In this document: in pieces, positions 3,092 to 58,640 of the stretch
How positions within the stretch are numbered: position 1 is the first letter of the stretch
How the letters are laid out: each line of letters opens with the position of its first letter
From: a virus
Lineage: Duplodnaviria; Caudoviricetes
Virus record (IMG/VR): IMGVR_UViG_3300032218_003059
Coordinates: 1-64,000 of that record
Strand: one strand, 5' to 3'
Length of the DNA: 64,000 nt
Translations under genes and position numbers: made by a program
The notes under the pieces: generated by a model
Databases searched by the model: none
The model's input: the letters and a program-made list of their open reading frames with translations, nothing else
What the model was told of the DNA's origin: nothing

Positions 3092-3133
3092 AATATCATG
3101 AATAAAAGCTGGAATCGAATACGCTAATCCCTA

Positions 3134-3208: not shown

Positions 3209-3221
3209 CTAAGGAGTTAAC

Positions 3222-3821: not shown

Positions 3822-4339
3822 AACCAAATGTAGTTGAAAAATTTTTAACTCCAGATGGTGCAATATTTTTAACTAATTATTTTAGACAGATGGAACCAGA
3901 AATAAGAAATCAAATTGGGTTTCACTGGGGAACAACAGATGCATCTAGATTAAATCTTAGTCAACCAATAATTCATGCAAGCATGCACAAAGCAATTCAC
4001 GATATTCAAAGTTTAATGGAAAATCATTTTAAATTAGGTCTAAAATTAAAAAGGTGTTTAGTTCAAACCATCTATACAGGAGGAGAAGTTGGAGAACATT
4101 GGGATGACTATTATGCCGAAGAGGAAGAAGGAATAGCTCAAAATGTTTATAGCGCTATTCTTTATTTAAGTAATGATTATGGTGGCGGAGAAATTAAATT
4201 TTCTAATTTAAATATTGAATTAAAACCAGATCCAGGAACATTAGTATTTTTTCCAGGTATTAAAGAATTTGAGCATGGAGTAAATCCAGTCCTATTCGGA
4301 GAAAGAACTAATTTTATATTATTCTTTAATAACATATGA
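3818..4339 (+). CDS. 2OG-Fe(II) oxygenase (P4H-like)
   Basis: HWD, YLSNDYGGGEI, EHGV, ERT. Confidence 0.9.
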   Translation: MKPNVVEKFLTPDGAIFLTNYFRQMEPEIRNQIGFHWGTTDASRLNLSQPIIHASMHKAIHDIQSLMENHFKLGLKLKRCLVQTIYTGGEVGEHWDDYYAEEEEGIAQNVYSAILYLSNDYGGGEIKFSNLNIELKPDPGTLVFFPGIKEFEHGVNPVLFGERTNFILFFNNI

Positions 4340-19621: not shown

Positions 19622-21004
19622 ATGGCAAATAAAAAGATAGGTATTAAATCATCAGCCCAGGACAACTTCCTAGAGCCTAAAGCTGTAACAGGTTTTACAG
19701 CAACAGCAGTCAACGGTGGAGCATTTGGAAATGGGTCTGTGTCACTTTCATGGACCCTTCCATCTGATTCACCAGCCGCAACTCTTTATAGCGTTACTTC
19801 AAGTCCCGCTACAACTACACAGACAACATCAGACACAAGCCTTTCTTTTACAGGATTATCTGGAGGAACAGCTTATACATTTACAATAGTTCCTTCAAAT
19901 GCTGTTGGAAATGGTCTATCTACAACATCAGCATCAGCAACTCCAACAACAATTCCCTCAGCTCCAACAAATGTTGCAGTAACATCAACATCTGCTGGTG
20001 TAGATAACTTGACATGGACAGCATCTAATGACGGAGGATCAGGAATAACAGGATACTCTTGGGCTTCATCTGATTCAAAGGCTGGTTCTGTTGGAAACGT
20101 AACTTCCGCAAATATTAATCAAGAACAAGGAACTGCACAGACATACACAGTTTATGCAACAAATGCTAATGGTAACTCATTAACATCAGCAGCATCAAAC
20201 TCTGTTACTACTTTCTTCTCACCACCTTCCTTCTTCTCGCCTCCAGGGTTCTTCTCGCCCCCAGGGTTCTTTGCGCCTCCAGGGTTCTTCGCACCTCCAG
20301 GGTTCTTCTCGCCTCCAGGGTTCTTTGCACCTCCAGGGTTCTTCTCTCCTCCAGGGTTCTTCGCACCTCCAGGGTTCTTCGCACCTCCAGGGTTCTTCTC
20401 GCCTCCAGGGTTCTTCTCGCCTCCAGGGTTCTTCGCACCACCATCATTCTTTACTCCACCATACTTCTGCATTGCTGAAAATACACCAGTATTAACAGAC
20501 GGCGGATATAAGATGGCAAAAGATATACAGGTTGGAGATAACTTAATGACAGTTAAGTTTGACGATATGCCAGTTGGAGATCTTGAATGTATACTGGGAG
20601 AAATTACAGATAACTGTAATACAATATTCAAATCATGGTCATCAGAAACTTTGGACGGGCTAGAATACGTTTCATCTAAAGTAACAGATATATTTGAAAG
20701 CATAGATAAAGATATAGTTATATTTAATAATGATATTACTACAGCCTTATCAACAGTTGAGCTAGCATTAGTTTATACTAATGGTAAGCATTCATTAAAA
20801 GAAGCTTCTGAAATATCTGTAGGAGATTATATTGTAACTTACAATGGTCAAATTAATAATACTCTAGTAACATCTGTTGAATTAGGAGACAAAGCAAATG
20901 CCTACTTATTCTACAGAGAAGGTAATAATATGATTATTACTGGTGGACCAATGGTCGTAAATGGCTGTCCACTATCATCAATGTCCTCATTGATTTCTAA
21001 CTAA
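19622..21004 (+). CDS. FN3-domain virion protein with FFxPPx repeat and C-terminal Hint-like domain
   Basis: Two FN3-like domains (VSLSWT..YTFTIVPSNAVG; DNLTWT..YTVYATNANG), 14 hexapeptide repeats, then CIAENTPVLT...IQVGD Hint block. Confidence 0.8.
   Translation: MANKKIGIKSSAQDNFLEPKAVTGFTATAVNGGAFGNGSVSLSWTLPSDSPAATLYSVTSSPATTTQTTSDTSLSFTGLSGGTAYTFTIVPSNAVGNGLSTTSASATPTTIPSAPTNVAVTSTSAGVDNLTWTASNDGGSGITGYSWASSDSKAGSVGNVTSANINQEQGTAQTYTVYATNANGNSLTSAASNSVTTFFSPPSFFSPPGFFSPPGFFAPPGFFAPPGFFSPPGFFAPPGFFSPPGFFAPPGFFAPPGFFSPPGFFSPPGFFAPPSFFTPPYFCIAENTPVLTDGGYKMAKDIQVGDNLMTVKFDDMPVGDLECILGEITDNCNTIFKSWSSETLDGLEYVSSKVTDIFESIDKDIVIFNNDITTALSTVELALVYTNGKHSLKEASEISVGDYIVTYNGQINNTLVTSVELGDKANAYLFYREGNNMIITGGPMVVNGCPLSSMSSLISN
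20213..20464 (+). repeat. 14 x 18-bp in-frame tandem repeat encoding FF[S/A/T]PP[G/S/Y]
   Basis: Directly counted; unit TTCTTC(T/G)CNCCTCCAGGG. Confidence 0.95.
20468..20962 (+). other. Degenerate Hint (intein/Hedgehog-like) domain
   Basis: Starts with Cys; block A CIAENTPV...IQVGD, ISVGDYI; block B TVEL lacks His; ends GPMVVN instead of VHN. Confidence 0.65.
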
Positions 21005-21024
21005 TTAAATGCTATAGTGGACTT

Positions 21025-21666
21025 ATGTACACAAGCAAGCAAGAGATATTCCCTGGAATGTGGAAATATTCAAATGTTTTTACTGAAGACTTAGATCTAG
21101 TAAATAGAATTGAATATGAAACATCCCAGGGAAATGTCTTTTGGGAAAGAGCTTCAGTTGGACTTGATGCTGTAGAAAATAGCTACAGATTCTGCTCCGT
21201 TTTAAAAATGGATGAATTTGGAGAATCACACCCTTTATATAAAGATATATATCAAGTACAAAAAGAATGTGTAGATGACTATAATTATATGCATAATTTA
21301 GATATAAATTTTTGGGAATGGACTAACATAGTAAAATATGTTCCAAATGAATATTTTAATGAGCATTCGGATCATGGATGGTCTTATGTATCTACAGTAT
21401 CTCTCGTTGGATATCCAAATGATGATTATACTGGTGGCTCTTTATATTTCCCAAAATTAAATTTAAATGTTGTTCCAGAAGCTGGCGACTTATTAATATT
21501 TCCCTCAAGCTACCTATTTTCTCATGTAGCTATGCCAGTTATAACGGGAACAAAGTATTGTTTTGCAACCATGCTTGACTATAATGATGATGCTCATTCT
21601 AGAGAGTATGATGAGTATATAGTAAGAAAATATAATAATGAAAAGAGAGCCTATAATGTTACCTAA
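21025..21666 (+). CDS. 2OG-Fe(II) oxygenase (P4H-like)
   Basis: HSDHG, YPNDDYTGG, FPSSYLFSH, TKY; TGC-TATAGT ends 6 nt upstream (leaderless-type). Confidence 0.9.
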   Translation: MYTSKQEIFPGMWKYSNVFTEDLDLVNRIEYETSQGNVFWERASVGLDAVENSYRFCSVLKMDEFGESHPLYKDIYQVQKECVDDYNYMHNLDINFWEWTNIVKYVPNEYFNEHSDHGWSYVSTVSLVGYPNDDYTGGSLYFPKLNLNVVPEAGDLLIFPSSYLFSHVAMPVITGTKYCFATMLDYNDDAHSREYDEYIVRKYNNEKRAYNVT

Positions 21667-22357
21667 TGCAGAGTTTATATACCCAGGAATTTTAGTATAC
21701 AGAGACGTTTATACAAAGGACATGGACCTTGTTAATAGACTTGAAGAGTCTTTATCAAGCGATCCAAATGCTGAGGGTATAGGGTACTCTGATGCACCAC
21801 ATGCAAAATATAAATGGAAGCAGGCTACAACTGGATATAGCAATAATGATTTAAAATACAGAGATTGCTATGATTTTAAAATTAAAAAGAACATATTTGA
21901 TGACACTGGTAAAAGCAAAGAGCAACTTAAGCTAGAAAAAATATGGGAAGATGCAAAGCAGGCACAGGTAGGTCCAGTTCAAGACTACTCTCAGATGTTT
22001 AACCTTGCCCCACTAACATATTGGGAATCTTTTAACTTTGTTAAATATGGTAAAGATCAGCACTTTCAAGTACATTCCGATCATGGCTATTCTTATATTT
22101 CAGTATTATCTTCAGTAGGATATCCTAATGACGACTATGAAGGCGGAGAATTATTTTTTGATAAGATAGGCGTAACAATAAAACCAAAAGCAGGCGATTT
22201 ATATCTGTTTCCATCTTCTTATATATATTCTCATGCAGCACTTCCAGTAAAAAGCGGAGTAAAATATTCAATAGTAACGATGCTTGATTATCATGAAGCT
22301 CCACATACACCTGACTATCGTGAGATAGAAGAAAGGTATAAGTTAATTCGTGATTAA
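21638..22357 (+). CDS. 2OG-Fe(II) oxygenase (P4H-like)
   Basis: HSDHG, YPNDDYEGGEL, FPSSYIYSH, VKY. Confidence 0.9.
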   Translation: MKREPIMLPNAEFIYPGILVYRDVYTKDMDLVNRLEESLSSDPNAEGIGYSDAPHAKYKWKQATTGYSNNDLKYRDCYDFKIKKNIFDDTGKSKEQLKLEKIWEDAKQAQVGPVQDYSQMFNLAPLTYWESFNFVKYGKDQHFQVHSDHGYSYISVLSSVGYPNDDYEGGELFFDKIGVTIKPKAGDLYLFPSSYIYSHAALPVKSGVKYSIVTMLDYHEAPHTPDYREIEERYKLIRD

Positions 22358-23069
22358 TTTTGAAGTATATAAAGATGACGGACCAGTTGCTAACATAGAG
22401 CCCCTTTCAGCAAAAAGAGATTGGATGGAGGCTACATTTGATAAGCATGCATATAGATGCTTACCCGTAACTTTAACCAATCAGTTAGGCTGGGCCATAT
22501 CTTTTCCAGAAGATATAACATTTATGTGGGACGGACAAATATCTACTTCTGGAGAGCATATTAAAGTTTTAGCTGGAGAAAAGTATATTCAAACAGGAAG
22601 AGGGCAAGCTACCGTAAGCTTTGAAACAGGTCTAGTTTTTAGAACACCAGAAAACTATAGCCTTTTAACATACAATGTTCCAAACATGTTTATGGAAGGA
22701 GTTTCTCCATATACTACAATAATAAGCTCATCCTTTTTTGAAGGACCACTTCCAGTTGCTTGGAAAATCACAAAAGCATTTGTACCAATAACAATAAAAG
22801 CTAATCAGCCAGTAGCTGCTGTATTTCCAATATCTCTTGCTAATATTCAAGGATCTACGTTAATAATAAAAAATATAAAAGATTTGATTAGGGTTAAAAG
22901 AGATATTCCTTTAGATTTAGATGAAGCAGTAAAGTCAGCTGCAGATGCCGCCGCTAATGGCGGGTGGACAGATTATTACAGAAATGCAATAGACTATATG
23001 GGAAACAAACTTGGAAGACATGAAGCTAAGTCTTTAAAATTATTAGTTAAAGATGAGTCAAATGAATAA
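22350..23069 (+). CDS. DUF6065-like protein
   Basis: RDWM...AYRCLPVTLTNQLGW..P...WDG signature recalled for DUF6065; GTG start. Confidence 0.65.
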   Translation: MINFEVYKDDGPVANIEPLSAKRDWMEATFDKHAYRCLPVTLTNQLGWAISFPEDITFMWDGQISTSGEHIKVLAGEKYIQTGRGQATVSFETGLVFRTPENYSLLTYNVPNMFMEGVSPYTTIISSSFFEGPLPVAWKITKAFVPITIKANQPVAAVFPISLANIQGSTLIIKNIKDLIRVKRDIPLDLDEAVKSAADAAANGGWTDYYRNAIDYMGNKLGRHEAKSLKLLVKDESNE

Positions 23070-23775
23070 GATTAGTTTTTGGTCAAATAGGCCAGCGAAT
23101 AACGATACCACAATCCCCGTAACTGCTAAAAAAGTTATGCCTCAGTGGTTTTTAGATGCTAAAAAATATTGGAAAAATGAAGAAGGAAAAGAATACATAA
23201 TTGCAGAAGGAGAAAAAGGTCTTGGGTTCAAGGCTTGTCCAGCTCTTTTAGATTTATTTAATTGTGGATACATGTTAGTTACTCCATGTGATGTTGTAGT
23301 TTATATGCAAGAAGGAAAAAAATTAATTGTTTCTTCACCAGAATTTCCAGATTTTTGTGAGGCTAGACCTTATATGAATGAATTTAGTTATCCTTATGGA
23401 TACGCAACAGATTCATTTCATTGGTTTCCAAGCTGGGGATTTGATTTGCCAAAAGGGTATAGCGCACTTGTTGTTCACCCTTTAAATAGATACGATTTAC
23501 CATTTTTAACAACAAACGGTATAATTGATAGTGATAAGTATGGTTCACCAGGATTGATGCCATTTTTTATTAGAGAAGATTTTACAGGGGTGATCCCAAA
23601 AGGAACACCGTTTGCACAAATAATTCCTTTTAAAAGAGAAGACTGGAAAGCCGAATATGATTTTATTGAATTAAACGATATGATTAAAAAGCACGAAGAG
23701 ACTGTAAATAAATATAGAGTCCCCTTTGGTGGGATTTATAAAAGATATACTTGGGTTCAAAAGAAGTACGAATAG
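23053..23775 (+). CDS. Conserved phage hypothetical protein, DUF6065-related
   Basis: KACPA...GYML.TPCD, PKGYS..HPLNR.DLPF, GTPFAQIIPFKREDW. Confidence 0.6.
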   Translation: MSQMNKISFWSNRPANNDTTIPVTAKKVMPQWFLDAKKYWKNEEGKEYIIAEGEKGLGFKACPALLDLFNCGYMLVTPCDVVVYMQEGKKLIVSSPEFPDFCEARPYMNEFSYPYGYATDSFHWFPSWGFDLPKGYSALVVHPLNRYDLPFLTTNGIIDSDKYGSPGLMPFFIREDFTGVIPKGTPFAQIIPFKREDWKAEYDFIELNDMIKKHEETVNKYRVPFGGIYKRYTWVQKKYE

Positions 23776-23784
23776 GGGATAAAA

Positions 23785-24477
23785 ATGGATAGAGAATTAA
23801 CTTACAAAGAAGACATTAGAACATCTAGAGAATCAATAACTCCTTCAGGTTATTTTGGCGGATGCAAAGAAAATATTGTAGAAATAGAAAACTTTTTAAC
23901 CGAAGAAGAGTGTGACTTCCTTATACTTTTTGCCAAGGGGAACACAGTTTGGGATGTAACTAAATCGGCAGTTAATGAAAATGGCAATGTTATTTATGAT
24001 GCAGATGTGTGGAAAGATCGTGTTGCAACAAGAAAGTCTTTAGACGAGTCAAATCCTTTAGTTTCTCCAATGCTAGAAAAAATAATTGAAAGATTAAAGC
24101 CAGTAATAGAAAAACATTTTAATGTTGAAGTAAATCCAACTGGTCCATGTATAGTTCGATGGCCAGAAGGAAGTATGCAATGGCCACATGCAGATAAAGA
24201 GCTTCATGAGGGACCAGATGCTGGAACTCCAAATAACTTTCCGTGGTATGACCTAGGAACGGTATTTTATTTAAACGATGATTACGAAGGCGGAAGATTG
24301 CATTTTCCAAGACAAGAAATTGCTTTTAAACCAAAAAAGAGAGCCGTATATTTTTTCCCAGGAGATTTAAATTACATCCATGGAGTAGACGTCATAACAA
24401 GTGGCGTCAGATACACCTCACCTTGGTTCTGGACAATAACAAAGCTAAATGAAAAGGAAGTTACTGTAAATGAATAA
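23785..24477 (+). CDS. 2OG-Fe(II) oxygenase (P4H-like)
   Basis: HAD, YLNDDYEGG, IHGV, VRY. Confidence 0.9.
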   Translation: MDRELTYKEDIRTSRESITPSGYFGGCKENIVEIENFLTEEECDFLILFAKGNTVWDVTKSAVNENGNVIYDADVWKDRVATRKSLDESNPLVSPMLEKIIERLKPVIEKHFNVEVNPTGPCIVRWPEGSMQWPHADKELHEGPDAGTPNNFPWYDLGTVFYLNDDYEGGRLHFPRQEIAFKPKKRAVYFFPGDLNYIHGVDVITSGVRYTSPWFWTITKLNEKEVTVNE

Positions 24478-25258
24478 AATAGAATTACACCCTAAAGTAA
24501 TGGTCTATAGAGACTTAATAAAAAATGTGCCAAAAGTTTTTAAAGCTATAACTGATTCACATGATAATTCAGGAGAAAATTATTTTAATCCATGGACAGA
24601 CTGGAGTAAGTTTGGCATTTATGCAAGTGTCAAGGGGGACCACGAGATAGTTGGTAGACTAGGATCAGATCCAGTATTTGATAATGAATATGAAATTGTT
24701 CAAGAAGTAGAAAATGCTTACAAAGTAGCAATTGATGATTATGTAAAAACTTATGACATTCAATTACCAGAAAATAGCAGATTAAATTCTTCTTCATTTT
24801 GCAGATACCACGAGGGCGTAGATGTGCTTGAGAATGATTTAACTATGCAATATCATACTGACTACAAGCAGTCAGAAAAAGAAATGCCAGGCAATCACTT
24901 CTTTATTACATGCACTACTTACATAAACGATAATTACACTGGCGGAGAAATAGAGTTTTATATTGATGGAAAGTTTATAACACATAAGCCAGTTGCTGGA
25001 GATATTATGGTATTCCCATCAGTAGAGCCTTACTACCATGGAGTAAAAACAATTACTTCTGGATATAAGTATTTAATTAGAAATTTTATAACATATAGAT
25101 ATCCAGGATCTAAAGAGTGGCTAGAAAACCAAATAGAATTTGGGGCTGTTCGCTGGGCAAAGATGGAAGCAGAAAGAATTGAAAAAGCTAGATTTAATGG
25201 AAACATTATTATAAAAAATGGTCAGGTTGTATCTGGGCCAGGTATGGAGTCAATGTAA
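24470..25258 (+). CDS. 2OG-Fe(II) oxygenase (P4H-like)
   Basis: HTD, YINDNYTGGEI, YHGV, KYLIR. Confidence 0.9.
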   Translation: MNKIELHPKVMVYRDLIKNVPKVFKAITDSHDNSGENYFNPWTDWSKFGIYASVKGDHEIVGRLGSDPVFDNEYEIVQEVENAYKVAIDDYVKTYDIQLPENSRLNSSSFCRYHEGVDVLENDLTMQYHTDYKQSEKEMPGNHFFITCTTYINDNYTGGEIEFYIDGKFITHKPVAGDIMVFPSVEPYYHGVKTITSGYKYLIRNFITYRYPGSKEWLENQIEFGAVRWAKMEAERIEKARFNGNIIIKNGQVVSGPGMESM

Positions 25259-25260
25259 TT

Positions 25261-25971
25261 ATGGACATAGTTAAACTAAAAGAAGATGCATTTATTGTAA
25301 ATAACTTTTTAACTTCAGAAGAGTGCGAGTCTGTTATAAAGTACTTTGATGCCATAACTGCAGCTGGTGTTTTAGATTGGAATCAGATATCTTTCTTTGG
25401 TTCTTTTGCAATGGGATATTGGCCAACAGATGAAAACCTTCTTCAGTTTAATTTACCAGCAAATTATTTTAATTTAGTTAAGAAAAAAATTCAAGATGCT
25501 GGAGAGATGTTGTTTGAAAGAGAGTTTAACGAGGTTAGCTTTCACGCACAGAAATGGGTAGACGGAGCATTTGCAGCTTTTCACTCAGATAATTCTGACG
25601 AACACGGAAATCCAAATGCTTTTCATAAAAGTAAATATGCTGCGTTTATATATTTAAACGACAACTTTGATGGAGGTCTTCTTAACTTCAAGCATGATGA
25701 TGTTACTGTAAAGCCCGCTATTGGCATGCTAGCCTTTTTTAAAGGTGGATATATGAACGAGCATGAAGTAACCACAGTAAAGGGCGGAGATAGATATACA
25801 ATAGGATCTTTTTGGGATAATGCAGATGAAGTATATGATGAAGAAACTATTAAAAAATGGGAAGATGAATTAAAGCAAACAAGAGCTCTTCAAGAAGAGC
25901 AATATAAAGAATGGGACGAGAACGTAAAACAAGGTCAAATTCCTCAATATAAGGGGAAGTATGATTATTAA
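25261..25971 (+). CDS. 2OG-Fe(II) oxygenase (P4H-like)
   Basis: HSD, YLNDNFDGG, EHEV, DRY. Confidence 0.9.
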   Translation: MDIVKLKEDAFIVNNFLTSEECESVIKYFDAITAAGVLDWNQISFFGSFAMGYWPTDENLLQFNLPANYFNLVKKKIQDAGEMLFEREFNEVSFHAQKWVDGAFAAFHSDNSDEHGNPNAFHKSKYAAFIYLNDNFDGGLLNFKHDDVTVKPAIGMLAFFKGGYMNEHEVTTVKGGDRYTIGSFWDNADEVYDEETIKKWEDELKQTRALQEEQYKEWDENVKQGQIPQYKGKYDY

Positions 25972-26548
25972 TAAGTTACATGATAATATCTATTACTATG
26001 AAAGAGCAATCAATAATCCTAAAGAGCTTTTAAAGCATCTAGATAAAAATGTTTGGGAGAGGTGGATGTCTTCCGATGGTGGAGAATTTTATGGCCACTC
26101 CCAAGGAGCTATGTTTGGAAGCGAAGAAATAGGATCCACAATAAATGAAAAAAATGGAATGATATTAAAGGAGATTTTTAACTCCGCTATTTTTGCTGCA
26201 AACAATTATTCAGATGCAACAGGAATTGATATTGGTTATCTTCCACCATTCTTTGCATTTAAAAAATATAATACTGGTATTGGAATGGGCCCACATGTTG
26301 ATAAATATAGTGGAAAAGATAAAAAGTCTACGCTATCAATGGTCATATATTTAAATGACGATTCCGAAGGCGGAGAGATAGAGTTTGCTAATCAAGGAAT
26401 ATTATTAAAGCCAAAGGCTGGCAGCATAATTGTATTCCCTCCTGGGAAACCCTACATGCATGAGTCTAAAAAAGTAACAGAGGGAAATAAATATATGATC
26501 CCGCTATTCTTTTTTAAAGATAAAAAGCCAAGAGCCAGCAAAAAATGA
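25961..26548 (+). CDS. 2OG-Fe(II) oxygenase (P4H-like)
   Basis: HVD, YLNDDSEGGEI, MHES, NKY. Confidence 0.88.
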   Translation: MIINKLHDNIYYYERAINNPKELLKHLDKNVWERWMSSDGGEFYGHSQGAMFGSEEIGSTINEKNGMILKEIFNSAIFAANNYSDATGIDIGYLPPFFAFKKYNTGIGMGPHVDKYSGKDKKSTLSMVIYLNDDSEGGEIEFANQGILLKPKAGSIIVFPPGKPYMHESKKVTEGNKYMIPLFFFKDKKPRASKK

Positions 26549-52838: not shown

Positions 52839-55800
52839 ATGGCCAACAATTCAAGCATATACAATGGATCATCCTGGGTTAAATTAAAAGCAATAAAAAT
52901 TTATAATGGCGGATGGCAGACAGTTAAAAAAGGTTTTATTTATACTGGAACAGCATGGGCTAGATTTTGGCCATCAGCTGGACCATATACAACAACATCT
53001 CCAAGTATACGAATAGACTCATATACTGGAAAATCTGTTGGCTCTGTAATTCAAATGGGCCCAAGACTAAGCAGCATAGAAGACAATACTCCGCCACTTA
53101 CAATTCCAGATGGATTATCTGGTGCTACATATTTGTGGGGGCAAGATGGTGTTTGGGCAAATAATACTAATGCTGTAATTAATAGATATTTTTATTACAA
53201 TTCATCAAATGATTTTACTAATGCATCTGCAATAAATGGTGTAACTGATAAGCTATCAAATACTAGCGGAACAATAGATTCATATGACGCAAAATATTTA
53301 TGGTATTACGTTACACAAACTACAGATGCAATGGGAGAGGACCAAAGCGAGTCATTGTATTTAATTAAACAAAGGCCAGCACCACCAATATCTTTTTTAA
53401 TAGATACCTCTACAGATCCAACAGTTGGCAAACCAGTAACAGTTAACTATTCTTTAAACACGGATTGGTATAGAAATGCAAAACTTAGTTTAAGCTATAT
53501 AGAATGGTTTGCAGAAACTACATTAAATCCAACATACTCATCTCCAGCCCAAACAGATTATTTGTCTGCAAATAGCGGTTCAAAAACATTTACTCCAACA
53601 GAAGCAGAAAAAGATAAGTATATATTTGCAAGAATAACAATAGCAAATTCATACTCAGATTATTATGGAAGTTCTTATGTAAGAACAGCGGAAGACTATA
53701 ATATTAAAAAGGTTGGCGCAGCGCAGCTCGCACCTAACTCAGGAACTGTATCAGTATCTCCATCAACTGGAACCGCTGGAACTACAACATATATTCCTAT
53801 ACCAGCAGGATGGAAGGGTCCTCCTGATATATTTACCTACACCTATTCATGGAGAATATTAAAGCCAAACTTACAATATCAAGAAGTAGGAACAGGATCG
53901 ACATTTGCTCCAGCGTTAAACTTCAATACTGCGTATCCAAACTTTGAAACTCGCTTATTTTGGACAGTATCAAATGGAATAGCTCCAGATGCAACTGGTA
54001 GTACAGGATTTACTGTAAATAATGCATTAATTACAAGAACACTTTCGTTTAGCGCTAATGGAGGCACAGGTGCTCCTGCAGCACAAACTGGTACAGACAA
54101 TGGATCTGGAGCAACCATTACAATAACAAACTCAATTCCAACACGAGACGGGTACAGATTTTTATATTGGAATACTTCTCCATCAGACATGGGAGGAACA
54201 ACATATGCACCTGGAAATAGTATTACTCTTAATACAGATGTAACTCTTTACGCAATGTGGAGTCTAATTTTAGTTGCTCCATACGGCGGAAGCACATCAG
54301 TTGATCCAACTTCTGGAGTATCTGGAACTCTATTTAGAGCAAGTACAAGCGGCTGGTCTGGCACTCCAAATTCATTTACCTATTCTTTTTCCTGGCAAGG
54401 CCTGTCAACATCAAACTACAATTATGTAGAACTAGGAACAGGATCTACATTTTATTCTTTTGGAATAAATCTAAACACCTACCTTGCATTTAGAGTTGTT
54501 GCAACTGCAACAAATGCCGCTGGATCTAGCTCAGCTCCTGCAGATTTTTCAATAACAATTCCATCATATACTAGAACACTTTCCTTTAGCGCAAACGGTG
54601 GAGTAAGCGCACCAGCAGCACAAACTGGCACAGACAATGGATCTGGAGCAACCATTACAATTACTACATCCACTCCAACTCGGTCTGGGTACAGATTTTT
54701 ATATTGGAATACTTCTCCATCAGACATGGGAGGAACAACATATAGTCCTGGAAATAATATTACTATAAGTTCAGATGTGACTCTATATGCAATATGGAGC
54801 CTGGTCCTTGTTCCGCCAAGTGGTGGGAGCACATCAGTTTCTCCAACTTCTGGAACCGTTGGTACAACATATACAGTAAGCACCTCTGGTTGGAGTGGAA
54901 CGCCAAATTCATTTACTTATGCATATTCCTGGCAAGGTTTATCGACTACGGGATACAATTATGTACAACTAGGAACAGGATCTACATTTAATTCTTCTGG
55001 AATAAACGTGGCAAACTACCTTGATTTCAGGGTTGTAGCAACAATTACAAATGCTGCTGGTTCTGTTCAAGATACAGCATACTTCTCAGTAACAGCTGCT
55101 ATAAATACAATTGCAACAATTGCTACACAGAATACAATTGCAACAATTGCTACACAGAATACAATTGCAACTCAGAATACAATTGCTACACAGAATACAA
55201 TTGCAACTCAAAATACAATTGCTACACAGAATACAATTGCTACACAGAATACAATTGCTACAATTGCTACACAGAATACAATTGCTACAATTGCTACACA
55301 GAACACAATTGCTACAATTGCTACACAGAACACAATTGCTACAATTGCTACAATTGCTACACAGAATACAATTGCAACTCAAAATACAATTGCTACACAG
55401 AATACAATTGCTACAATTGCTACACAGAATACAATTGCTACAATTGCAACTCAGAATACAATTGCTACAGGTGGAGGAGGTTGCTTTGTTTACGGCACTG
55501 AAATTCAAATGGCAGACGGAAGCTGGAAGAATATGGAAGACCTATATATTGGAGATCAAGTTATGGGTATAGATATTCCTACAGTCCCTTATGAGGATAG
55601 TATGGGATTTGACTATATTCCAACATGGACATCTACAGATGTTTCTGGTACAATAAAATCTGTAGCTACTGTTATAAATGTAGATAACAGATCATTTGAT
55701 AGCTATTATTTAATTAATAATCAAGTAAAGGTTACATATGAGCATAACGTATTGGTTCAACAAGATGGAATATGGAAATTTATCATGGTTGAAGATATTA

Positions 55801-55970
55801 ATGTTGGAGACAATATAATGAACGAAAACCTTGAAATAGTTCCAGTTTTATCAAAAGAATTAATAAATGAAACAGTAAATACTACATCAATAAATATTGA
55901 CGATATTGATGTTTATACCGTAAGGGGCATGGTTGCCCACAATATAACAAGTAAGGCGGGGGCCAATTGA
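52839..55970 (+). CDS. Fibre/adhesin-like virion protein: Ig-like and InlB B-repeat-like domains, (X-X-Thr)41 repeat, C-terminal Hint domain
   Basis: Two RTLSFSANGG...PTR.GYRFLYWNT...TLYA.W (Listeria-Bacteroides repeat-like) modules; IAT/QNT repeat; GGGG-CFVYGT...TYEH...VAHN. Confidence 0.85.
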   Translation: MANNSSIYNGSSWVKLKAIKIYNGGWQTVKKGFIYTGTAWARFWPSAGPYTTTSPSIRIDSYTGKSVGSVIQMGPRLSSIEDNTPPLTIPDGLSGATYLWGQDGVWANNTNAVINRYFYYNSSNDFTNASAINGVTDKLSNTSGTIDSYDAKYLWYYVTQTTDAMGEDQSESLYLIKQRPAPPISFLIDTSTDPTVGKPVTVNYSLNTDWYRNAKLSLSYIEWFAETTLNPTYSSPAQTDYLSANSGSKTFTPTEAEKDKYIFARITIANSYSDYYGSSYVRTAEDYNIKKVGAAQLAPNSGTVSVSPSTGTAGTTTYIPIPAGWKGPPDIFTYTYSWRILKPNLQYQEVGTGSTFAPALNFNTAYPNFETRLFWTVSNGIAPDATGSTGFTVNNALITRTLSFSANGGTGAPAAQTGTDNGSGATITITNSIPTRDGYRFLYWNTSPSDMGGTTYAPGNSITLNTDVTLYAMWSLILVAPYGGSTSVDPTSGVSGTLFRASTSGWSGTPNSFTYSFSWQGLSTSNYNYVELGTGSTFYSFGINLNTYLAFRVVATATNAAGSSSAPADFSITIPSYTRTLSFSANGGVSAPAAQTGTDNGSGATITITTSTPTRSGYRFLYWNTSPSDMGGTTYSPGNNITISSDVTLYAIWSLVLVPPSGGSTSVSPTSGTVGTTYTVSTSGWSGTPNSFTYAYSWQGLSTTGYNYVQLGTGSTFNSSGINVANYLDFRVVATITNAAGSVQDTAYFSVTAAINTIATIATQNTIATIATQNTIATQNTIATQNTIATQNTIATQNTIATQNTIATIATQNTIATIATQNTIATIATQNTIATIATIATQNTIATQNTIATQNTIATIATQNTIATIATQNTIATGGGGCFVYGTEIQMADGSWKNMEDLYIGDQVMGIDIPTVPYEDSMGFDYIPTWTSTDVSGTIKSVATVINVDNRSFDSYYLINNQVKVTYEHNVLVQQDGIWKFIMVEDINVGDNIMNENLEIVPVLSKELINETVNTTSINIDDIDVYTVRGMVAHNITSKAGAN
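54036..55100 (+). repeat. Tandem duplication, period 537 bp (179 aa)
   Basis: AGAACACTTTC..TTTAGCGC.AA at 54036 and 54573, with long near-identical stretches. Confidence 0.85.
55101..55469 (+). repeat. 41 in-frame 9-bp units encoding X-X-Thr (25 IAT, 15 QNT, 1 INT)
   Basis: Directly counted; 369 bp. Confidence 0.95.
55482..55943 (+). other. Hint (intein/Hedgehog-like) domain, 154 aa
   Basis: Cys1 CFVYGTEIQMADG, block B TYEH, INVGD, terminal VAHN; +1 residue is Ile followed by a short tail. Confidence 0.88.
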
Positions 55971-56566
55971 ATTCGCCCAGTAATATGATAAAACAAGTAC
56001 TTAGCGATAAATTAGTAATATATCAAAATGCTATACCAAACCCAAAAGAACTTATAAAAGAGTTTGAAAACACTTTAACAGAATTTAATCAGTCATGGAA
56101 AAAATCAGTTATAAATGATTTTGAGTATAATAGCGATCTAAGATCGTGCACAATATTCTCACTTTTTGTTAATGACTCTGATGATGCAGAATGGGCTAAA
56201 GCAAAAGTAAGCTTAAATCAAAAAATTAATAAATTTGTTTCCGAAGCATTTTTAGACTATTGCAAAACTTATGAGTACAAGGTAAAAAATAAAGAGCCTT
56301 GGGAAATATGTAGATATGAAGAAACTCAAAAACTAGTTTGGCATACAGACGATGGGCCAACACACCCATGCGATGTATCTTTTGTAATTTATTTTAATGA
56401 TGATTACGAGGGCGGAGAAATTCAATTTAAAGAGCATTTAGATGGTTATCCTTATAAGCCACCAGCTGGCAGCATAATAATATTTCCATCAAAATCAACA
56501 CACATTCATAGGGTGATACCAATTACAAAAGGAATAAAGTATGCTGCAATTAGCTTCGCCAAATAA
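55967..56566 (+). CDS. 2OG-Fe(II) oxygenase (P4H-like)
   Basis: HTDDG, YFNDDYEGGEI, IHRV, IKY; true start may be ATG 55985. Confidence 0.9.
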   Translation: MNSPSNMIKQVLSDKLVIYQNAIPNPKELIKEFENTLTEFNQSWKKSVINDFEYNSDLRSCTIFSLFVNDSDDAEWAKAKVSLNQKINKFVSEAFLDYCKTYEYKVKNKEPWEICRYEETQKLVWHTDDGPTHPCDVSFVIYFNDDYEGGEIQFKEHLDGYPYKPPAGSIIIFPSKSTHIHRVIPITKGIKYAAISFAK

Positions 56567-57143
56567 AATATACGAAGGAATTTTGGTTTACAATAATTCT
56601 AACGGAGCTGATATTCTTTTACAAAGCATTGAAGATCTTTTAACAAACTCTACTGATGCAAGATGGAGTCCTTCTAGAATTATAAAGTCTAAAGAAGAAG
56701 GTTATGTCGTAGATAAATCTATAAGAGATAATTTATATTTTTGGCTAAACTACAGTTTAGATTATGAAAAAGAAACAAAGTCAAAAATGATGAAGATTAG
56801 CTCTATGATAGACACTGCAATTATTCCATCATTAAATGACTATCAAAATAAATACAGTGTTCAAATTAAAACCAGAGATCCATATGAGCTTTTAAAGTAC
56901 TATGAAAACAATCATCTATCCTCTCATACAGATGATGGCGGAGCCAACCACTCTAGAGTATCTTTGTTATTTTATATAAACGATGATTACGAGGGCGGAG
57001 ACATAGTGTTTGATTATTTAAATATATCATATTCTCCTAATATAGGAGACATAATAATATTCCCTTCTTCGTACATATATAGACATCACGTAAATAAGGT
57101 TACGAAAGGTATCCGTTACTGCATTGCGGATTTTATGGCATAA
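56541..57143 (+). CDS. 2OG-Fe(II) oxygenase (P4H-like)
   Basis: HTDDG, YINDDYEGGDI, FPSSYIYRH, IRY. Confidence 0.9.
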   Translation: MLQLASPNKIYEGILVYNNSNGADILLQSIEDLLTNSTDARWSPSRIIKSKEEGYVVDKSIRDNLYFWLNYSLDYEKETKSKMMKISSMIDTAIIPSLNDYQNKYSVQIKTRDPYELLKYYENNHLSSHTDDGGANHSRVSLLFYINDDYEGGDIVFDYLNISYSPNIGDIIIFPSSYIYRHHVNKVTKGIRYCIADFMA

Positions 57144-57682
57144 TGAAAAGTAGAAAGATTTTCCCAGGCGTATTTGCCTATTCTGATTTTTTTGATGATC
57201 CTATGGAAATTTTTAGCAATGTGGAAGACATGGGTGGGTGGCACCCAGCAGAAGCTGGTGCATATGGCGAAGGCCCTTCTATAGTCGAGGAGAGAAGACG
57301 TGGGCTAATGTATAATCTACAAAGAGATCCCAATGTAAAAAAAATAACTGCAATGTCATTAGAGGCAATTAAACATTATAAATCTTTTTATGGATTAAAT
57401 TTAAAAAATCTAGAGGGCTGGTGCCTACTAAAGTATAGAGAAGGTGATTTTTTTTCTGCACATACAGATGACTCTCACGACTTCCCTAGACAAATATCTA
57501 TGGTTTACTACGCAAATGATGACTACGAAGGAGGTGAACTAGAGTTTATATTTTTTAATAATTTAAAGATTAAGCCAAACGCTGGCGAGCTAGTTATATT
57601 TCCATCTAACTACTTATTTGTTCATAAGGTAAATCCAATAACCAAGGGTGAAAAATATGCTGCAACATCGTTTGCCTATTGA
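57143..57682 (+). CDS. 2OG-Fe(II) oxygenase (P4H-like)
   Basis: HTDDS, YANDDYEGGEL, FPSNYLFVH, EKY. Confidence 0.9.
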   Translation: MKSRKIFPGVFAYSDFFDDPMEIFSNVEDMGGWHPAEAGAYGEGPSIVEERRRGLMYNLQRDPNVKKITAMSLEAIKHYKSFYGLNLKNLEGWCLLKYREGDFFSAHTDDSHDFPRQISMVYYANDDYEGGELEFIFFNNLKIKPNAGELVIFPSNYLFVHKVNPITKGEKYAATSFAY

Positions 57683-58640
57683 TAAAAAAATATTTATCTC
57701 AATACCTTCATATGAAGATGAGCTATTGTTAGAAACAATTAATGACGCATTATTAAAGGCAAAGAATGCTTCAAGGCTTACATTTGGCGTTGCCCTGCAA
57801 TATAAAAAAATTGATAAACCAGACCTATCTTTTTTAGGAAATCAATTAAAATTAATAGAATATGATGTTGACAGCAGGCCAGGGATAATCGAGATAAGAA
57901 AAAATATAGCGGATTTAATTGAAGACGAGGAGTACTTTCTTGGCATAGATGCTCACACCCTTTTTGCCCAAAACTGGGATCAACAATATATAGATGATCA
58001 CCAGATGCTAATTGAAAAAAATGGTAATAGTAAAGTTTGCATTGCATCTAGAATTAATGGATCTGAGTCTGATTTTAAAAAAGATTTATATTCAGAATAT
58101 TTAGATACTAGATGGATTTTAGATATAAACAAAAATAACGTATATGAAACTTGGTGGGACTGGCCAGTAGATGTCAAAAATAGGCTTTATGATACTCCAG
58201 AGTATGTAAAAAGATACTTTGTTTCTGCAAACAACTGGTTTACAACTTCAGAGTTTTTTATAAACAACCTGTTTTGGTGTTTCAATAAAACGGTATATGA
58301 AGAACCACAGATATCCCTATCATTATTTTTAAATAACTACGATGTATACCTGCCAACAAGCAAGGTGCTTGTCATAGCTAATCCAAAATCACAGACAACA
58401 AATAGGGAAAATAAAATTCATTGGCAAAACCCTAGTCATAAAAATTGGAATCACGACAGCATAGAGGTAGTCAGAGAAGTATTTAAGTTATTCTATACTG
58501 GCAAAAGCAATATATTTAGTCTGAATAGGCCAGATGATATATATAAATGGTGGAATGCAATCGGCTTATACGAAAAAGCCAAAGAGGTATCCGATAGGCT
58601 TAAAACTCTGCATTTAGATAGGACATACTACTTAGACTAG
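57648..58640 (+). CDS. GT-A glycosyltransferase resembling Skp1-hydroxyproline / polypeptide GlcNAc transferases (GT60-like)
   Basis: IFISIPSYED...LTFGVALQ and YFLGIDAHTLFAQNWD (DxH) match recalled Gnt1-family motifs; start may be TTG 57672. Confidence 0.72.
   Translation: MKNMLQHRLPIDKKIFISIPSYEDELLLETINDALLKAKNASRLTFGVALQYKKIDKPDLSFLGNQLKLIEYDVDSRPGIIEIRKNIADLIEDEEYFLGIDAHTLFAQNWDQQYIDDHQMLIEKNGNSKVCIASRINGSESDFKKDLYSEYLDTRWILDINKNNVYETWWDWPVDVKNRLYDTPEYVKRYFVSANNWFTTSEFFINNLFWCFNKTVYEEPQISLSLFLNNYDVYLPTSKVLVIANPKSQTTNRENKIHWQNPSHKNWNHDSIEVVREVFKLFYTGKSNIFSLNRPDDIYKWWNAIGLYEKAKEVSDRLKTLHLDRTYYLD

What the first reader, a model, noticed from the sequence alone, without database searches (positions are those of the whole stretch)
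55101..58640. (X-X-Thr)41 tripeptide repeat resembles antifreeze glycoprotein and sits beside a GT60-like O-GlcNAc transferase
Seen: Thr at every third residue for 123 aa (25 IAT, 15 QNT, 1 INT), with three oxygenases and a GT-A transferase downstream in the same operon. Known: fish antifreeze glycoproteins are (Ala-Ala-Thr)n O-glycosylated on Thr, and GT60 enzymes are related to polypeptide GalNAc-Ts and add GlcNAc to Thr or Hyp. Inference: the phage may build an AFGP- or mucin-like glycopolymer on its tail tip, for ice binding, freeze protection or glycan shielding. The Asn of QNT is a possible beta-hydroxylation target.
Basis: partly seen in the sequence, partly recalled or inferred. Interest (0 to 1): 0.8.

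Follow-up and report, generated by a model that had tools for sequence, protein, structure and literature searches.

The report
Enzyme-tailored repeat thread on phage fibre
An uncultured phage's tail-fibre-like protein ends in 41 three-residue repeats, four glycines and a probably self-cutting intein-like domain, and the next four genes encode three hydroxylases and a mucin-type sugar transferase that probably decorate that thread; an antifreeze role has no support.

Summary
Residues 755-877 of a 1043-aa tail-module protein are 41 X-X-Thr units (25 IAT, 15 QNT, 1 INT). Three PF13640 2OG-Fe(II) oxygenases and a PF11397 (GT60-type) transferase follow, tightly packed.

The array runs into GGGG|Cys and a C-terminal bacterial-intein-like (BIL/Hint) domain. 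This module is widespread: IMG/VR holds at least 411 related Hint loci. In 22 of the best 80, an X-X-Thr array (INT, VNT, IDT, QNT) lies just before the Gly linker, and an oxygenase gene follows the Hint gene in all 22.

One oxygenase clade, which includes the window's first oxygenase, goes with this repeat type. Pro-rich repeats have other clades. The reverse search agrees in 17 of 17 informative loci.

Divergent GT60 genes join the cassette in several phages, once fused to an oxygenase. The window holds a second such system, (FFxPPG)14 plus a Hint-like domain plus an oxygenase array.

Best reading: a hydroxylated, O-HexNAc-glycosylated, mucin-like thread whose Hint cap removes itself. All chemistry is inferred.

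This scan met the same module in two other genomes.

The parts
52839..55970 (+). Fibre-like tail-module protein, 1043 aa. It has an N-terminal triple G-x-W strand motif, two modules each ending in a Flg_new domain, then the repeat, Gly4 and Hint.
   Evidence: It is a single ORF with two PF09479 stretches. It lies after the tape measure gene and genes matching minor tail and tail protein families in PHROGs (phrog_10359, phrog_9983). The fibre itself matches no PHROG family.
54042..54266 (+). First Flg_new (Listeria-Bacteroides repeat) domain, about aa 402-476
   Evidence: Pfam reports two PF09479 stretches.
54579..54803 (+). Second Flg_new domain, about aa 581-655
   Evidence: The best PF09479 stretch covers aa 580-651 (positions checked).
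55101..55469 (+). (X-X-Thr)41 array: 25 IAT, 15 QNT, 1 INT. It contains no Pro and no Lys.
   Evidence: The AlphaFold2 monomer model gives pLDDT about 40 and no secondary structure here.
55470..55481 (+). Gly4 linker (aa 878-881); the predicted scissile bond is Gly881|Cys882.
   Evidence: A Gly-rich junction directly before Cys1 is kept in most relatives.
55482..55943 (+). BIL-type Hint domain (aa 882-1035): Cys882, block B T-Y-E-H (Thr966, His969), terminal His1034-Asn1035.
   Evidence: phmmer finds 1631 relatives, 353 of them at E<=1e-10. These residues are invariant in the alignments. The model has pLDDT above 90, and its top folds are PDB 2LWY and 6Y75/6TMM.
55944..55967 (+). Eight-residue C-terminal tail (ITSKAGAN) with Lys at +4 and no Cys, Ser or Thr at +1.
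   Evidence: A Lys occurs in the tail of 55 of 55 distinct viral Hint ORFs, against 14.5 expected.
55967..56566 (+). Oxygenase 1 (199 aa), PF13640, a member of the clade that accompanies X-X-Thr arrays. Metal and 2OG ligands: His126, Asp128, His181, Lys191.
   Evidence: Pfam E 2.4e-12. Clade support is SH-aLRT 99. The ligand residues are conserved, and the reverse scan is.
56541..57143 (+). Oxygenase 2 (200 aa), PF13640, on a long branch near oxygenases of other Hint cassettes, including the GT-fused one of L028.
57143..57682 (+). Oxygenase 3 (179 aa), PF13640. It groups with the second oxygenase of the INT-type cassettes L052, L059 and L073.
   Evidence: Pfam E 3.3e-16; tree. The closest solved relatives are PKHD-type hydroxylases and Bacillus anthracis prolyl 4-hydroxylase.
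57648..58640 (+). GT60-type polypeptide HexNAc transferase (330 aa from the GTG start, or 327 aa from the ATG at 57657), GT-A fold, invariant D101-x-H103 and H258.
   Evidence: PF11397. The invariant residues come from 13 homologues. The model has pLDDT 84, and its top folds are human ppGalNAc-T2, mouse GalNAc-T1 and Drosophila PGANT9.
19622..21004 (+). Second system in the same phage: a 460-aa protein with FN3-like regions, (FFxPPG)14 at 20213-20464 and a divergent Hint-like domain starting F|CIAENT at 20468.
   Evidence: The Hint core HMM scores E 5.7e-13.
21025..26548 (+). Array of eight genes directly after the second Hint-like gene: six score above the PF13640 cut-off, one scores just below it (23785-24477, 23.7 against 27 bits), one is DUF6065 and one has no family. 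The first two oxygenases cluster with the partner of the PPxFF repeat in L035.
   Evidence: The tree places them with SH-aLRT 100.

Best explanation
The gene at 52839-55970 encodes a tail-tip side fibre whose distal end is a three-part module.

The parts are: a 123-residue low-complexity thread with Thr at every third position, a Gly4 hinge, and a bacterial-intein-like Hint domain.

Inferred step 1, autoprocessing. The Hint domain shifts the Gly881-Cys882 peptide bond to a thioester and removes itself. It cannot splice in the classical way because the +1 residue is Ile. The thioester is resolved by water or by an amine; the conserved Lys of the 8-residue tail is the nearest candidate.

Inferred step 2, tailoring. 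While the fibre is made in the host cytoplasm, the co-transcribed enzymes modify the thread.
- The first oxygenase belongs to a clade found only behind this repeat type. It would hydroxylate a side chain of the repeat. Asn or Asp at position 2 is the best guess, and Thr or the first-position residue are alternatives.
- The other two oxygenases would add further hydroxyl groups.
- The GT60-type enzyme would transfer HexNAc (GlcNAc, by family) to Thr or to a new hydroxyl group.

The product would be an extended, hydroxylated and glycosylated thread of mucin, extensin or bottle-brush type. Its length drifts by gain and loss of 9-bp units. It probably serves reach, first contact with host surface glycans, or protection from proteases.

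Shown here: the sequence features, the folds, the catalytic residues and the co-inheritance. Inferred: every chemical step and the biological role.
For: 1. The module is real and common.
- The Hint domain has 1631 relatives, nearly always at the very C-terminus behind a Gly-rich junction and very often behind a low-complexity repeat.
- IMG/VR holds 411 related loci.
- The closest fibre relative, P0164, carries (I-[DNAS]-T) about 23 times, then GGGG|C and Hint.

2. The oxygenase is linked to the repeat.
- 22 of the best 80 loci have X-X-Thr arrays of 9-32 units ending 2-38 residues (mostly 4-10) before Cys1. All 22 have a PF13640 gene starting within about 0-45 bp of the Hint stop, and in most it is the only oxygenase in the 16-kb locus.
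- The oxygenases next to X-X-Thr arrays form one clade with the window's first oxygenase (SH-aLRT 99).
- Pro-rich repeats (NPPVY, PPxFF, YVPPP) have other clades, although the Hints of the NPPVY and PPxFF loci are closer to the window's (46-56% identity) than those of several X-X-Thr loci (33-42%).
- Starting from the oxygenase, all 17 loci with at least 40% identity and upstream DNA have a Hint gene directly upstream, and 15 of those have X-X-Thr arrays. Among 59 more distant oxygenase loci, 8 have any Hint and none has X-X-Thr.

3. The same logic occurs twice in this genome: (FFxPPG)14 plus a Hint-like domain plus its own oxygenase clade.

4. The transferase is linked too.
- PF11397 genes sit within about 4 kb downstream of the Hint gene (0-2 kb in four of five) in the window, L028, L048, L051 and L052, and beside clade-A oxygenases at the cut contig ends of L109 and L111.
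- The five that were compared are only 20-32% identical to each other, so the association recurs rather than being recently inherited.
- In L028 the transferase is fused to an oxygenase (498 aa).

5. The enzymes look active: HxD...H plus Lys in all three oxygenases, and DxH plus a distal His in the transferase.

6. The folds fit. The transferase model matches ppGalNAc-T2. The Hint model matches the Clostridium thermocellum BIL domain (TM 0.83) and Tetrahymena BIL2.

7. The thread is predicted unstructured (pLDDT about 40).

8. Copy number varies between phages that are 98.3% identical: 24 units against 32.

9. A cultured phage, Dickeya phage AD1, annotates its collagen-plus-Hint protein as a virion structural protein among tail genes.
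Against: - No biochemical result exists for any member.
- PF13640 enzymes with known substrates hydroxylate Pro or Lys (established knowledge of the family), and the array has neither. A new residue specificity must therefore be assumed.
- The genome has 16 PF13640 genes in 86 kb, so adjacency in this one genome alone would mean little.
- PF11397 and oxygenase islands also occur with no Hint gene within 10 kb (L006-L024).
- Many of the loci are related phages, so the counts are not independent events.
- The oxygenase tree is the quick version, with several long branches.
- A monomer model cannot exclude a folded trimer.
- The fibre's place in the virion is inferred from gene order only.
Confidence: 0.55

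Rival explanations
1. Antifreeze reading: the array, once glycosylated on Thr, acts like fish antifreeze glycoprotein and binds ice or protects the virion from freezing.
For: Thr sits at every third residue for 41 units, 25 of them Ile-Ala-Thr. The adjacent transferase folds like the polypeptide GalNAc-transferases that start the antifreeze glycoprotein glycan. The thread is predicted to be flexible.
Against: Relatives with the same module use INT, VNT, IDT and QNT, so Ala-Ala is not conserved. Most relatives have an oxygenase and no transferase. Other family members have Pro-rich, collagen-like or aromatic repeats in the same position. No second transferase for a disaccharide lies in the block. 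No ice-related feature was found, and sample metadata could not be read.
Confidence: 0.03
2. Host-directed enzymes: the oxygenases and the transferase are auxiliary or host-takeover genes that modify host proteins (as prolyl hydroxylases do on Skp1, EF-Tu or ribosomal proteins). They sit behind fibre genes only because that is a tolerated insertion site.
For: There are 16 PF13640 genes, a second PF11397 gene, AhpC, AhpD-like and ferritin-like genes spread over the genome. PHROGs files these families under 'moron, auxiliary metabolic gene'. PF11397 and oxygenase islands occur without a Hint gene in L006-L024.
Against: A specific oxygenase clade follows a specific repeat type in both search directions, and it does so independently of Hint similarity. 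Genes overlap or start within tens of bp of the Hint stop. Two matched pairs occur in one genome. The module moves together between proteins with unrelated N-terminal parts.
Confidence: 0.2
3. Folded rod: the X-X-Thr array is not a loose thread but a regular oligomeric structure, a collagen analogue or beta-solenoid with Thr and Asn ladders. Hydroxylation stabilises it as hydroxyproline stabilises collagen, and the Hint domain acts as a removable folding nucleus.
For: The period of three is strict, and a collagen-hydroxylase-type enzyme is always present. True collagen G-X-Y repeats occupy the same position before the Hint in other members (P0043, P0068, P0105, P0142, L064, Dickeya phage AD1 gp108). 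Removable C-terminal chaperone domains are established for phage fibres.
Against: Thr cannot take the axial Gly position of a collagen helix (established structural knowledge). The AlphaFold2 model gives no structure for the array (pLDDT about 40), although only a monomer was modelled. Copy number varies freely, and very different repeat chemistries are tolerated in the same position.
Confidence: 0.12
4. Reactive hook: the Hint domain is not simply discarded. Its Gly thioester ligates the end of the thread to an amine on another virion protein or on the host surface, as Tetrahymena BIL2 joins a ubiquitin-like domain to lysine.
For: The closest folds are BIL domains, including BIL2. BIL2 forms a Lys isopeptide bond without ATP (PMC8616854). 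The G|CF junction matches the Hedgehog site. All catalytic residues are kept. Lys is present in 55 of 55 tails. The long flexible tether would place the domain at the far end of the fibre.
Against: There is no evidence for any acceptor. The tail Lys would give only a small self-cap. A thioester exposed on a free virion would hydrolyse over time. This reading overlaps with the best explanation rather than excluding it.
Confidence: 0.1

Closest known systems
A-type bacterial intein-like (BIL) domains, e.g. Clostridium thermocellum BIL (PDB 2LWY), and BIL2 of the Tetrahymena BUBL1 locus (PDB 6Y75, 6TMM)
   Same: The fold matches (TM 0.75-0.83). The domain has Cys1, block B TxxH and a terminal His-Asn. 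It is not inserted in a conserved host protein and has no obligatory +1 nucleophile. BIL2 uses a lysine of the C-terminal flank (PMC8616854), and here a Lys is invariant in the short tail.
   Different: Here the domain ends a phage fibre. It follows a tandem repeat and a Gly4 linker, has only a 1-15-residue C-terminal flank, and travels with a hydroxylase gene.
Skp1 modification pathway of Dictyostelium and Toxoplasma (prolyl 4-hydroxylase PhyA plus GT60 GlcNAc-transferase Gnt1)
   Same: It pairs a prolyl-hydroxylase-superfamily oxygenase with a PF11397/GT60 enzyme, both acting in the cytoplasm (family knowledge).
   Different: The phage has no Skp1, and the array has no proline. Three oxygenases are present. 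The target is a 41-unit repeat rather than a single residue.
Collagen lysyl hydroxylase/glycosyltransferase LH3 and mimivirus L230; PBCV-1 viral prolyl 4-hydroxylase
   Same: These are virus-encoded or bifunctional hydroxylase-plus-glycosyltransferase enzymes acting on a tripeptide-repeat structural protein. LH3 appears among the sequence hits. L028 carries a GT-oxygenase fusion in the same domain order.
   Different: The repeat has Thr rather than Gly at every third position, and no Lys or Pro. The transferase family is GT60, not the LH3 type.
Mucin-type O-glycosylation (polypeptide GalNAc-transferases, GT27) and Trypanosoma cruzi mucin O-GlcNAc (GT60)
   Same: The substrate is a Thr-rich, unstructured tandem repeat, and the transferase model is closest to ppGalNAc-T2 and T1.
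   Different: It is bacterial and cytoplasmic, lacks a lectin domain, and has no Pro in the repeat. A hydroxylase is the constant partner.
Fish antifreeze glycoproteins, (Ala-Ala-Thr)n
   Same: A tripeptide period with Thr in the third place, and a HexNAc transferase is on hand.
   Different: Positions 1 and 2 are Ile-Ala or Gln-Asn here, and Ile/Val-Asn/Asp in relatives. There is no homology and no evidence for a disaccharide or for ice binding.
Phage-encoded glycosylation of virion proteins in actinobacteriophages (own knowledge: Freeman et al. 2023, mycobacteriophages Che8, Corndog and Myrna)
   Same: Phage glycosyltransferases decorate Ser/Thr-rich ends of structural proteins. This phage's terminase is 62% identical to those of Streptomyces phages.
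   Different: Those transferases belong to other families, the targets are capsid and tail-tube subunits, and no hydroxylase or Hint domain is involved.

Membership tests
Antifreeze glycoprotein (AFGP) | Tandem Ala-Ala/Pro-Thr tripeptides | tested here: not met
   Thr is in the third place in 41 of 41 units, but positions 1-2 are Ile-Ala (25 units), Gln-Asn (15) or Ile-Asn (1). Relatives use INT, VNT, IDT and QNT.
Antifreeze glycoprotein (AFGP) | Gal-GalNAc disaccharide on each Thr, and ice-binding activity | not testable with these tools
   This needs glyco-mass spectrometry and ice-recrystallisation or thermal-hysteresis assays.
GT60 / PF11397 polypeptide GlcNAc transferase | Match to the family model above the curated cut-off | tested here: met
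   50.3 bits against a cut-off of 21, E 3.2e-13. All 13 homologues carry PF11397.
GT60 / PF11397 polypeptide GlcNAc transferase | GT-A fold related to polypeptide GalNAc-transferases, with a DxH metal motif | tested here: met
   The model has pLDDT 84, and its top 20 PDB matches are ppGalNAc-T2, PGANT9 and similar enzymes (E down to 8.6e-10). D101, H103 and H258 are invariant.
GT60 / PF11397 polypeptide GlcNAc transferase | Transfers GlcNAc from UDP-GlcNAc to Thr or hydroxyproline of a polypeptide | not testable with these tools
   An enzyme assay is needed.
Prolyl 4-hydroxylase-like 2OG-Fe(II) oxygenase (PF13640) | Family model match and the HxD...H triad plus a basic 2OG-binding residue | tested here: met
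   All three score 45-60 bits against a cut-off of 27. His126, Asp128 and His181 are invariant, and Lys or Arg at 191 is kept in all 15 aligned sequences. PDB profile hits are PKHD-type hydroxylases, B. anthracis P4H and LH3.
Prolyl 4-hydroxylase-like 2OG-Fe(II) oxygenase (PF13640) | Substrate residue is Pro (or Lys) | tested here: inconclusive
   The array has no Pro and no Lys. The rest of the fibre has 46 Pro. The substrate is unknown.
A-type BIL / Hint autoprocessing domain | Cys1, block B TxxH, C-terminal His-Asn, Hint fold | tested here: met
   Cys882, Thr966, His969, His1034 and Asn1035 are present. The best fold match is 2LWY with TM 0.83 and rmsd 2.2. The Pfam Hint models alone score below their cut-offs.
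Classical intein | Cys, Ser or Thr at +1 and insertion in a conserved host protein, allowing splicing | tested here: not met
   The +1 residue is Ile and varies in relatives. Only 8 residues follow the domain.
Collagen-like triple helix | Gly at every third residue | tested here: not met
   Thr, not Gly, recurs. True G-X-Y repeats do occur at this position in other family members.
Skp1 hydroxylation-glycosylation pathway | A Skp1 target with the modified proline | tested here: not met
   Only the enzyme pairing is shared. The array has no proline, and no Skp1 family appeared among the Pfam results for the window genes that were scanned.

The most novel reading that the evidence does not exclude
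Phages have a portable fibre-tip tailoring cassette that has not been described. It consists of a tandem repeat, a Gly4 hinge and a BIL-type Hint domain. Its dedicated prolyl-hydroxylase-family oxygenase hydroxylates a residue other than Pro or Lys (Asn, Asp or Thr) in an X-N/D-T tripeptide polymer. A GT60 enzyme then glycosylates the polymer. The Hint thioester is resolved by the invariant tail lysine or by an outside amine. This would be a bacterial-virus counterpart of collagen, extensin or mucin maturation, with a new hydroxylase specificity and possibly a covalent ligation step.
Probability: 0.3. Interest if true: 0.85.

Novelty: new variant of a known kind. Interest (0 to 1): 0.68.

Why it matters
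The parts are known kinds: a BIL/Hint domain, a prolyl-hydroxylase-like oxygenase and a GT60 transferase. Their union as a mobile cassette at the end of phage fibres was not found in eight full-text searches.

If the enzymes act on the thread, several things follow:
- Phages would carry out collagen- or mucin-style maturation of their own adhesion organs inside bacteria.
- A prolyl-hydroxylase-family clade would have a new residue specificity.
- The many unexplained 2OG-Fe(II) oxygenase genes of aquatic phages, 16 in this genome alone, would gain a concrete and testable substrate class.
- The Gly4-Cys-Hint junction with its invariant tail lysine would offer a natural self-cleaving or self-capping tag.

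The antifreeze idea, which made the finding attractive, is the weakest part.

Tried and rejected
- **Cultured phages.** Searches with the transferase protein and with the 3.7-kb DNA gave no match.
- **Close relatives of the transferase in IMG/VR.** Single-protein scans with the window protein, P0010 and P0003 found none. The gene context of the 41-70% identical transferases P0002-P0013 therefore stays unknown.
The contig of P0164, the closest fibre relative, could not be read.
- **Transferase profile against PDB sequences.** No hit; only fold comparison placed it.
- **The first broad Hint alignment** was too divergent for a locus scan, so a narrower one was used.
- **Promoter and terminator scan.** Nothing above the shuffled background.
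- **Careful maximum-likelihood tree.** It did not finish in the time allowed, so the quick tree is cited.
- **Literature.** Searches for a Hint-terminated phage fibre, a phage prolyl hydroxylase acting on fibres, or GT60 in phages returned only unrelated uses: terminase inteins, polymorphic toxins and a giant algal virus.
- **Rejected ideas.**
  - A collagen-type helix, because Thr cannot replace the axial Gly.
  - An N-glycosylation sequon, because N-T-I is not N-x-S/T.
  - Hydroxylation of the Gly4 linker, because the linker is kept in members that have no oxygenase.
  - Phase variation by frameshift, because the units are multiples of three.

Full report
**1. The observation**

The window is the first 64 kb of an 86,241-bp IMG/VR phage record. 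Gene 52839-55970 (+) encodes 1043 residues. Residues 755-877 (DNA 55101-55469) are 41 uninterrupted X-X-Thr tripeptides: 25 IAT, 15 QNT and 1 INT. Tandem Repeats Finder reports the same array.

Seven 9-bp DNA unit types encode only three peptide units, and every difference within a peptide type is synonymous. Selection therefore acts on the peptide.

The reading frame is anchored on both sides, by two Flg_new domains (PF09479, E 3e-23) upstream and a Hint domain downstream. ORFs in other frames across the repeat are artefacts.

The next four genes are three PF13640 2OG-Fe(II) oxygenases and a PF11397 'Glycosyltransferase (GlcNAc)' protein. All five genes overlap or abut. A 60-bp gap with a strong ribosome-binding site comes only after the transferase.

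The block lies in the tail module. It comes after the 2522-aa tape measure gene and genes matching minor tail and tail protein families in PHROGs, and before a small protein with a weak, below-cut-off match to a gp53-like fibre domain.

**2.

The array runs into GGGG and then Cys882, the first residue of a roughly 155-residue Hint domain. The domain ends in His1034-Asn1035 and is followed by only eight residues, ITSKAGAN.

Pfam's Hint models score below their cut-offs. A full phmmer scan of 1.8 billion representatives nevertheless finds 1631 relatives, 353 of them at E<=1e-10.

In those relatives:
- the domain is almost always at the very C-terminus;
- a Gly-rich stretch precedes Cys1;
- the segment before that is very often a low-complexity repeat, such as PT-rich, collagen G-X-Y, FxPxF, VSPVG, YYAP or IIATP.

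Cys1, the block B Thr and His (T-Y-E-H here) and the terminal His-Asn are invariant. The residue after Asn is variable and usually not a nucleophile, so classical splicing is excluded.

The AlphaFold2 model gives pLDDT above 90 for the Hint part. Its best PDB matches are:
- the bacterial intein-like domain of Clostridium thermocellum (2LWY, TM 0.83, rmsd 2.2);
- BIL2 of the Tetrahymena BUBL1 locus (6Y75, 6TMM);
- behind these, mini-inteins and the Hedgehog autoprocessing domain.

BIL2 is reported to join the C-terminus of its N-terminal flank to a lysine by an isopeptide bond without ATP (PMC8616854).

In 55 of 55 distinct viral Hint ORFs that end in His-Asn plus at most 15 residues, the short tail contains a lysine. 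Composition predicts 14.5, and none of 20,000 simulations reached 55. The window's tail has Lys at +4.

**3. The module is a family, and the oxygenase belongs to it**

*The closest relative.* The closest full-length relative, P0164 (1032 aa), has unrelated Cys-rich and FN3 N-terminal parts. It ends in (I-[D/N/A/S]-T) about 23 times, then GGGG|C and a Hint domain 58% identical to the window's.

*Scan from the Hint side.* A scan of IMG/VR with a Hint alignment found 411 loci, of which the best 80 were kept.
- In 22 of them the Hint ORF carries an X-X-Thr array of 9-32 units (INT, VNT, IDT, IAT, QNT, QAT). The array ends 2-38 residues (mostly 4-10) before the Gly linker and Cys1.
- All 22 have a PF13640-type gene starting within about 0-45 bp of the Hint stop. 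In most it is the only oxygenase in the 16-kb locus (Pfam checks).
- Other repeats that have a downstream oxygenase are NPPVY(S/D), PPxFF, YVPPP, QNTQVASPPAPV and GGSTNS.
- PT-rich and FSVF repeats have none.

*Oxygenase tree.* A tree of 60 oxygenases puts the window's first oxygenase (55967-56566) in one clade (SH-aLRT 99). That clade contains every oxygenase that sits next to an X-X-Thr or QNT array, plus the partners of the two N-T/N-S-containing repeats.
- Partners of Pro-rich repeats fall in other clades.
- This is not just shared descent of the Hint. The NPPVY and PPxFF Hints are 46-56% identical to the window's, closer than the Hints of several X-X-Thr loci (33-42%).

*Reverse scan from the oxygenase side.*
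- All 17 loci with an oxygenase at least 40% identical to the window's and with upstream DNA have a Hint ORF directly upstream. Fifteen of these carry X-X-Thr arrays.
- Of 59 loci with oxygenases at 35% identity or less, eight have any Hint gene and none has an X-X-Thr array.
- Many loci come from related phages, so these are not independent events. However, the N-terminal parts of the carrier proteins differ completely: PASTA-like, Cys-rich, FN3 or Flg_new.

The window's third oxygenase groups with the second oxygenase of INT-type cassettes (L052, L059, L073). The second lies near oxygenases of L055, L063 and L028.

**4. A second system in the same genome**

Gene 19622-21004 encodes FN3-like regions, (FFxPPG)14 and a divergent Hint-like domain starting F|CIAENT.

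It is followed at once by eight genes, seven of them PF13640-like (one just below the Pfam cut-off). The first two cluster with the oxygenase that follows a PPxFF-Hint gene in L035 (SH-aLRT 100).

So the genome has two repeat types, each with its own oxygenase clade. In all, the 86-kb genome has 16 PF13640-like genes, of which 15 score above the Pfam cut-off.

**5. The transferase**

The PF11397 match is well above the cut-off. Only 13 homologues exist among 5.8 billion clustered proteins, and all carry PF11397. D101-x-H103 and H258 are invariant.

The model (pLDDT 84) is closest to human ppGalNAc-T2, mouse GalNAc-T1 and Drosophila PGANT9. This agrees with the known kinship of GT60 and GT27.

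PF11397 genes lie within about 4 kb downstream of the Hint gene (0-2 kb in four of five) in the window, L028, L048, L051 and L052, and beside clade-A oxygenases in L109 and L111. The five that were compared are only 20-32% identical to one another, so the association recurs.

In L028 the transferase is fused to a PF13640 domain (498 aa). That is the domain order of collagen LH3 and mimivirus L230.

L051 has a transferase and no oxygenase behind an FSVF/FTP repeat, which argues that Ser or Thr can be the acceptor directly.

Against a strict link, PF11397 genes also occur in islands with oxygenases, a carbamoyltransferase and a GT61 gene, with no Hint gene within 10 kb (L006-L024). The genome's second PF11397 gene lies among AhpC, AhpD-like and ferritin-like genes.

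**6. State of the thread**

The monomer model gives pLDDT about 40 and no secondary structure for the array.

Two phages 98.3% identical over the whole protein differ by a single 24-residue gap in the array, 24 units against 32. Length therefore drifts by unit gain and loss.

**7. Mechanism proposed**

Shown here:
- the architecture;
- intact catalytic residues in all five catalytic domains (the Hint domain, three oxygenases and the transferase);
- the folds;
- co-inheritance.

Inferred:
- The Hint domain converts Gly881-Cys882 to a thioester and leaves, with water or the tail lysine resolving the thioester.
- The clade-A oxygenase hydroxylates a residue of the array. N-T or N-S is the dipeptide shared by most of its partner repeats, although arrays also hold D-T and A-T units and the window's own is mostly IAT.
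- The transferase adds HexNAc to Thr or to the new hydroxyl group.
- The result is an extended, decorated thread at the far end of a side fibre.

I put 0.55 on the core claim, that the enzymes tailor the thread and the Hint domain processes itself.

**8. Comparison and verdict**

The system works like mucin, extensin or collagen maturation and like BIL autoprocessing. By the features tested:
- it is a member of the BIL, PF13640 and PF11397 families;
- it is not a classical intein, because the +1 residue is not a nucleophile;
- it is not a collagen, because it lacks Gly at every third residue;
- it is not an antifreeze glycoprotein, because the composition is not conserved, there is no homology and activity is untested.

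The antifreeze reading gets 0.03.

Cultured relatives are distant. The terminase is 62% identical to those of Streptomyces phages. The nearest cultured Hint carriers are jumbo Erwinia and Dickeya phages, where a collagen-plus-Hint protein is annotated as a virion structural protein among tail genes.

Full-text searches found no description of the cassette.

The same module was reported by this scan in two other genomes (e1-5998330, e1-5945743). Their claims about the self-cutting Hint, the travelling hydroxylase and the tail lysine were reached independently here.

What this window adds:
- the fullest version of the cassette, with three oxygenases and a GT60 transferase;
- the longest array seen (41 units);
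- a second matched repeat-oxygenase system in the same genome.

Noticed in passing
window 19622-26548: A second repeat-Hint system: a 460-aa protein with (FFxPPG)14 and a divergent Hint-like domain that lacks the Gly4 linker and the terminal His-Asn. Eight genes follow it directly, seven of them PF13640-like.
   Followed up: partly
whole genome G000 (window 260-4339, 21025-26548, 55967-57682; genome 72025-72996 and 76977-77558): The 86-kb phage genome has 16 PF13640-like 2OG-Fe(II) oxygenase genes, roughly one gene in six among plus-strand ORFs of 80 aa or more.
   Followed up: partly
L005 14828-18717 (genome 81069-84958): A cluster of AhpC peroxiredoxin, AhpD-like (CMD), an HNH endonuclease, a second PF11397 transferase (371 aa), a ferritin/Dps-like protein and a short-chain dehydrogenase. 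It may supply iron and peroxide handling for the many oxygenases.
   Followed up: no
L028 10103-11599: A single 498-aa ORF fuses a PF11397 transferase (aa 84-277) to a PF13640 oxygenase (aa 413-498). It lies about 1.6 kb downstream of a repeat-Hint gene, between two other oxygenase genes.
   Followed up: partly
tails of Hint ORFs in L028-L107; window 55944-55967: Every one of 55 distinct C-terminal tails after the Hint His-Asn contains a lysine, often as the last or next-to-last residue (14.5 expected).
   Followed up: partly
L032 4413-8489 versus L033 4341-8489: Two fibre proteins 98.3% identical differ only by eight tripeptide units (24 against 32), so the repeat number is polymorphic.
   Followed up: yes
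P0014, P0018, P0019, P0036, P0042: Several of the closest database Hint proteins are 150-residue ORFs that begin at a Met a few residues after Cys1. They are probably truncated gene calls at contig ends, where the repeat DNA broke the assembly.
   Followed up: no
L108 (Dickeya phage vB_DsoM_AD1, record 66720-81200): gp108 has collagen G-X-Y repeats and a C-terminal Hint domain and is annotated as a virion structural protein. The next two small genes also encode collagen repeats, and there is no oxygenase nearby.
   Followed up: partly
L006-L024, e.g. L010 7001-16462: A different phage group has a PF11397 transferase next to a carbamoyltransferase, two oxygenases, a GT61 gene and a GmrSD-like nuclease, with no Hint gene within 10 kb.
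   Followed up: partly
window 52839-52980 and the N-termini of P0016, P0062, P0164: Hint-terminated proteins from unrelated phages share an N-terminal triple G-x-W(K) strand motif, which may be the part that docks to the virion.
   Followed up: no
L059, L073, L042, L054 (Hint ORFs): Some relatives carry two X-X-Thr arrays separated by a small Cys-rich domain (motif ...CLxDxIPSGTxYRxECCG...).
   Followed up: no
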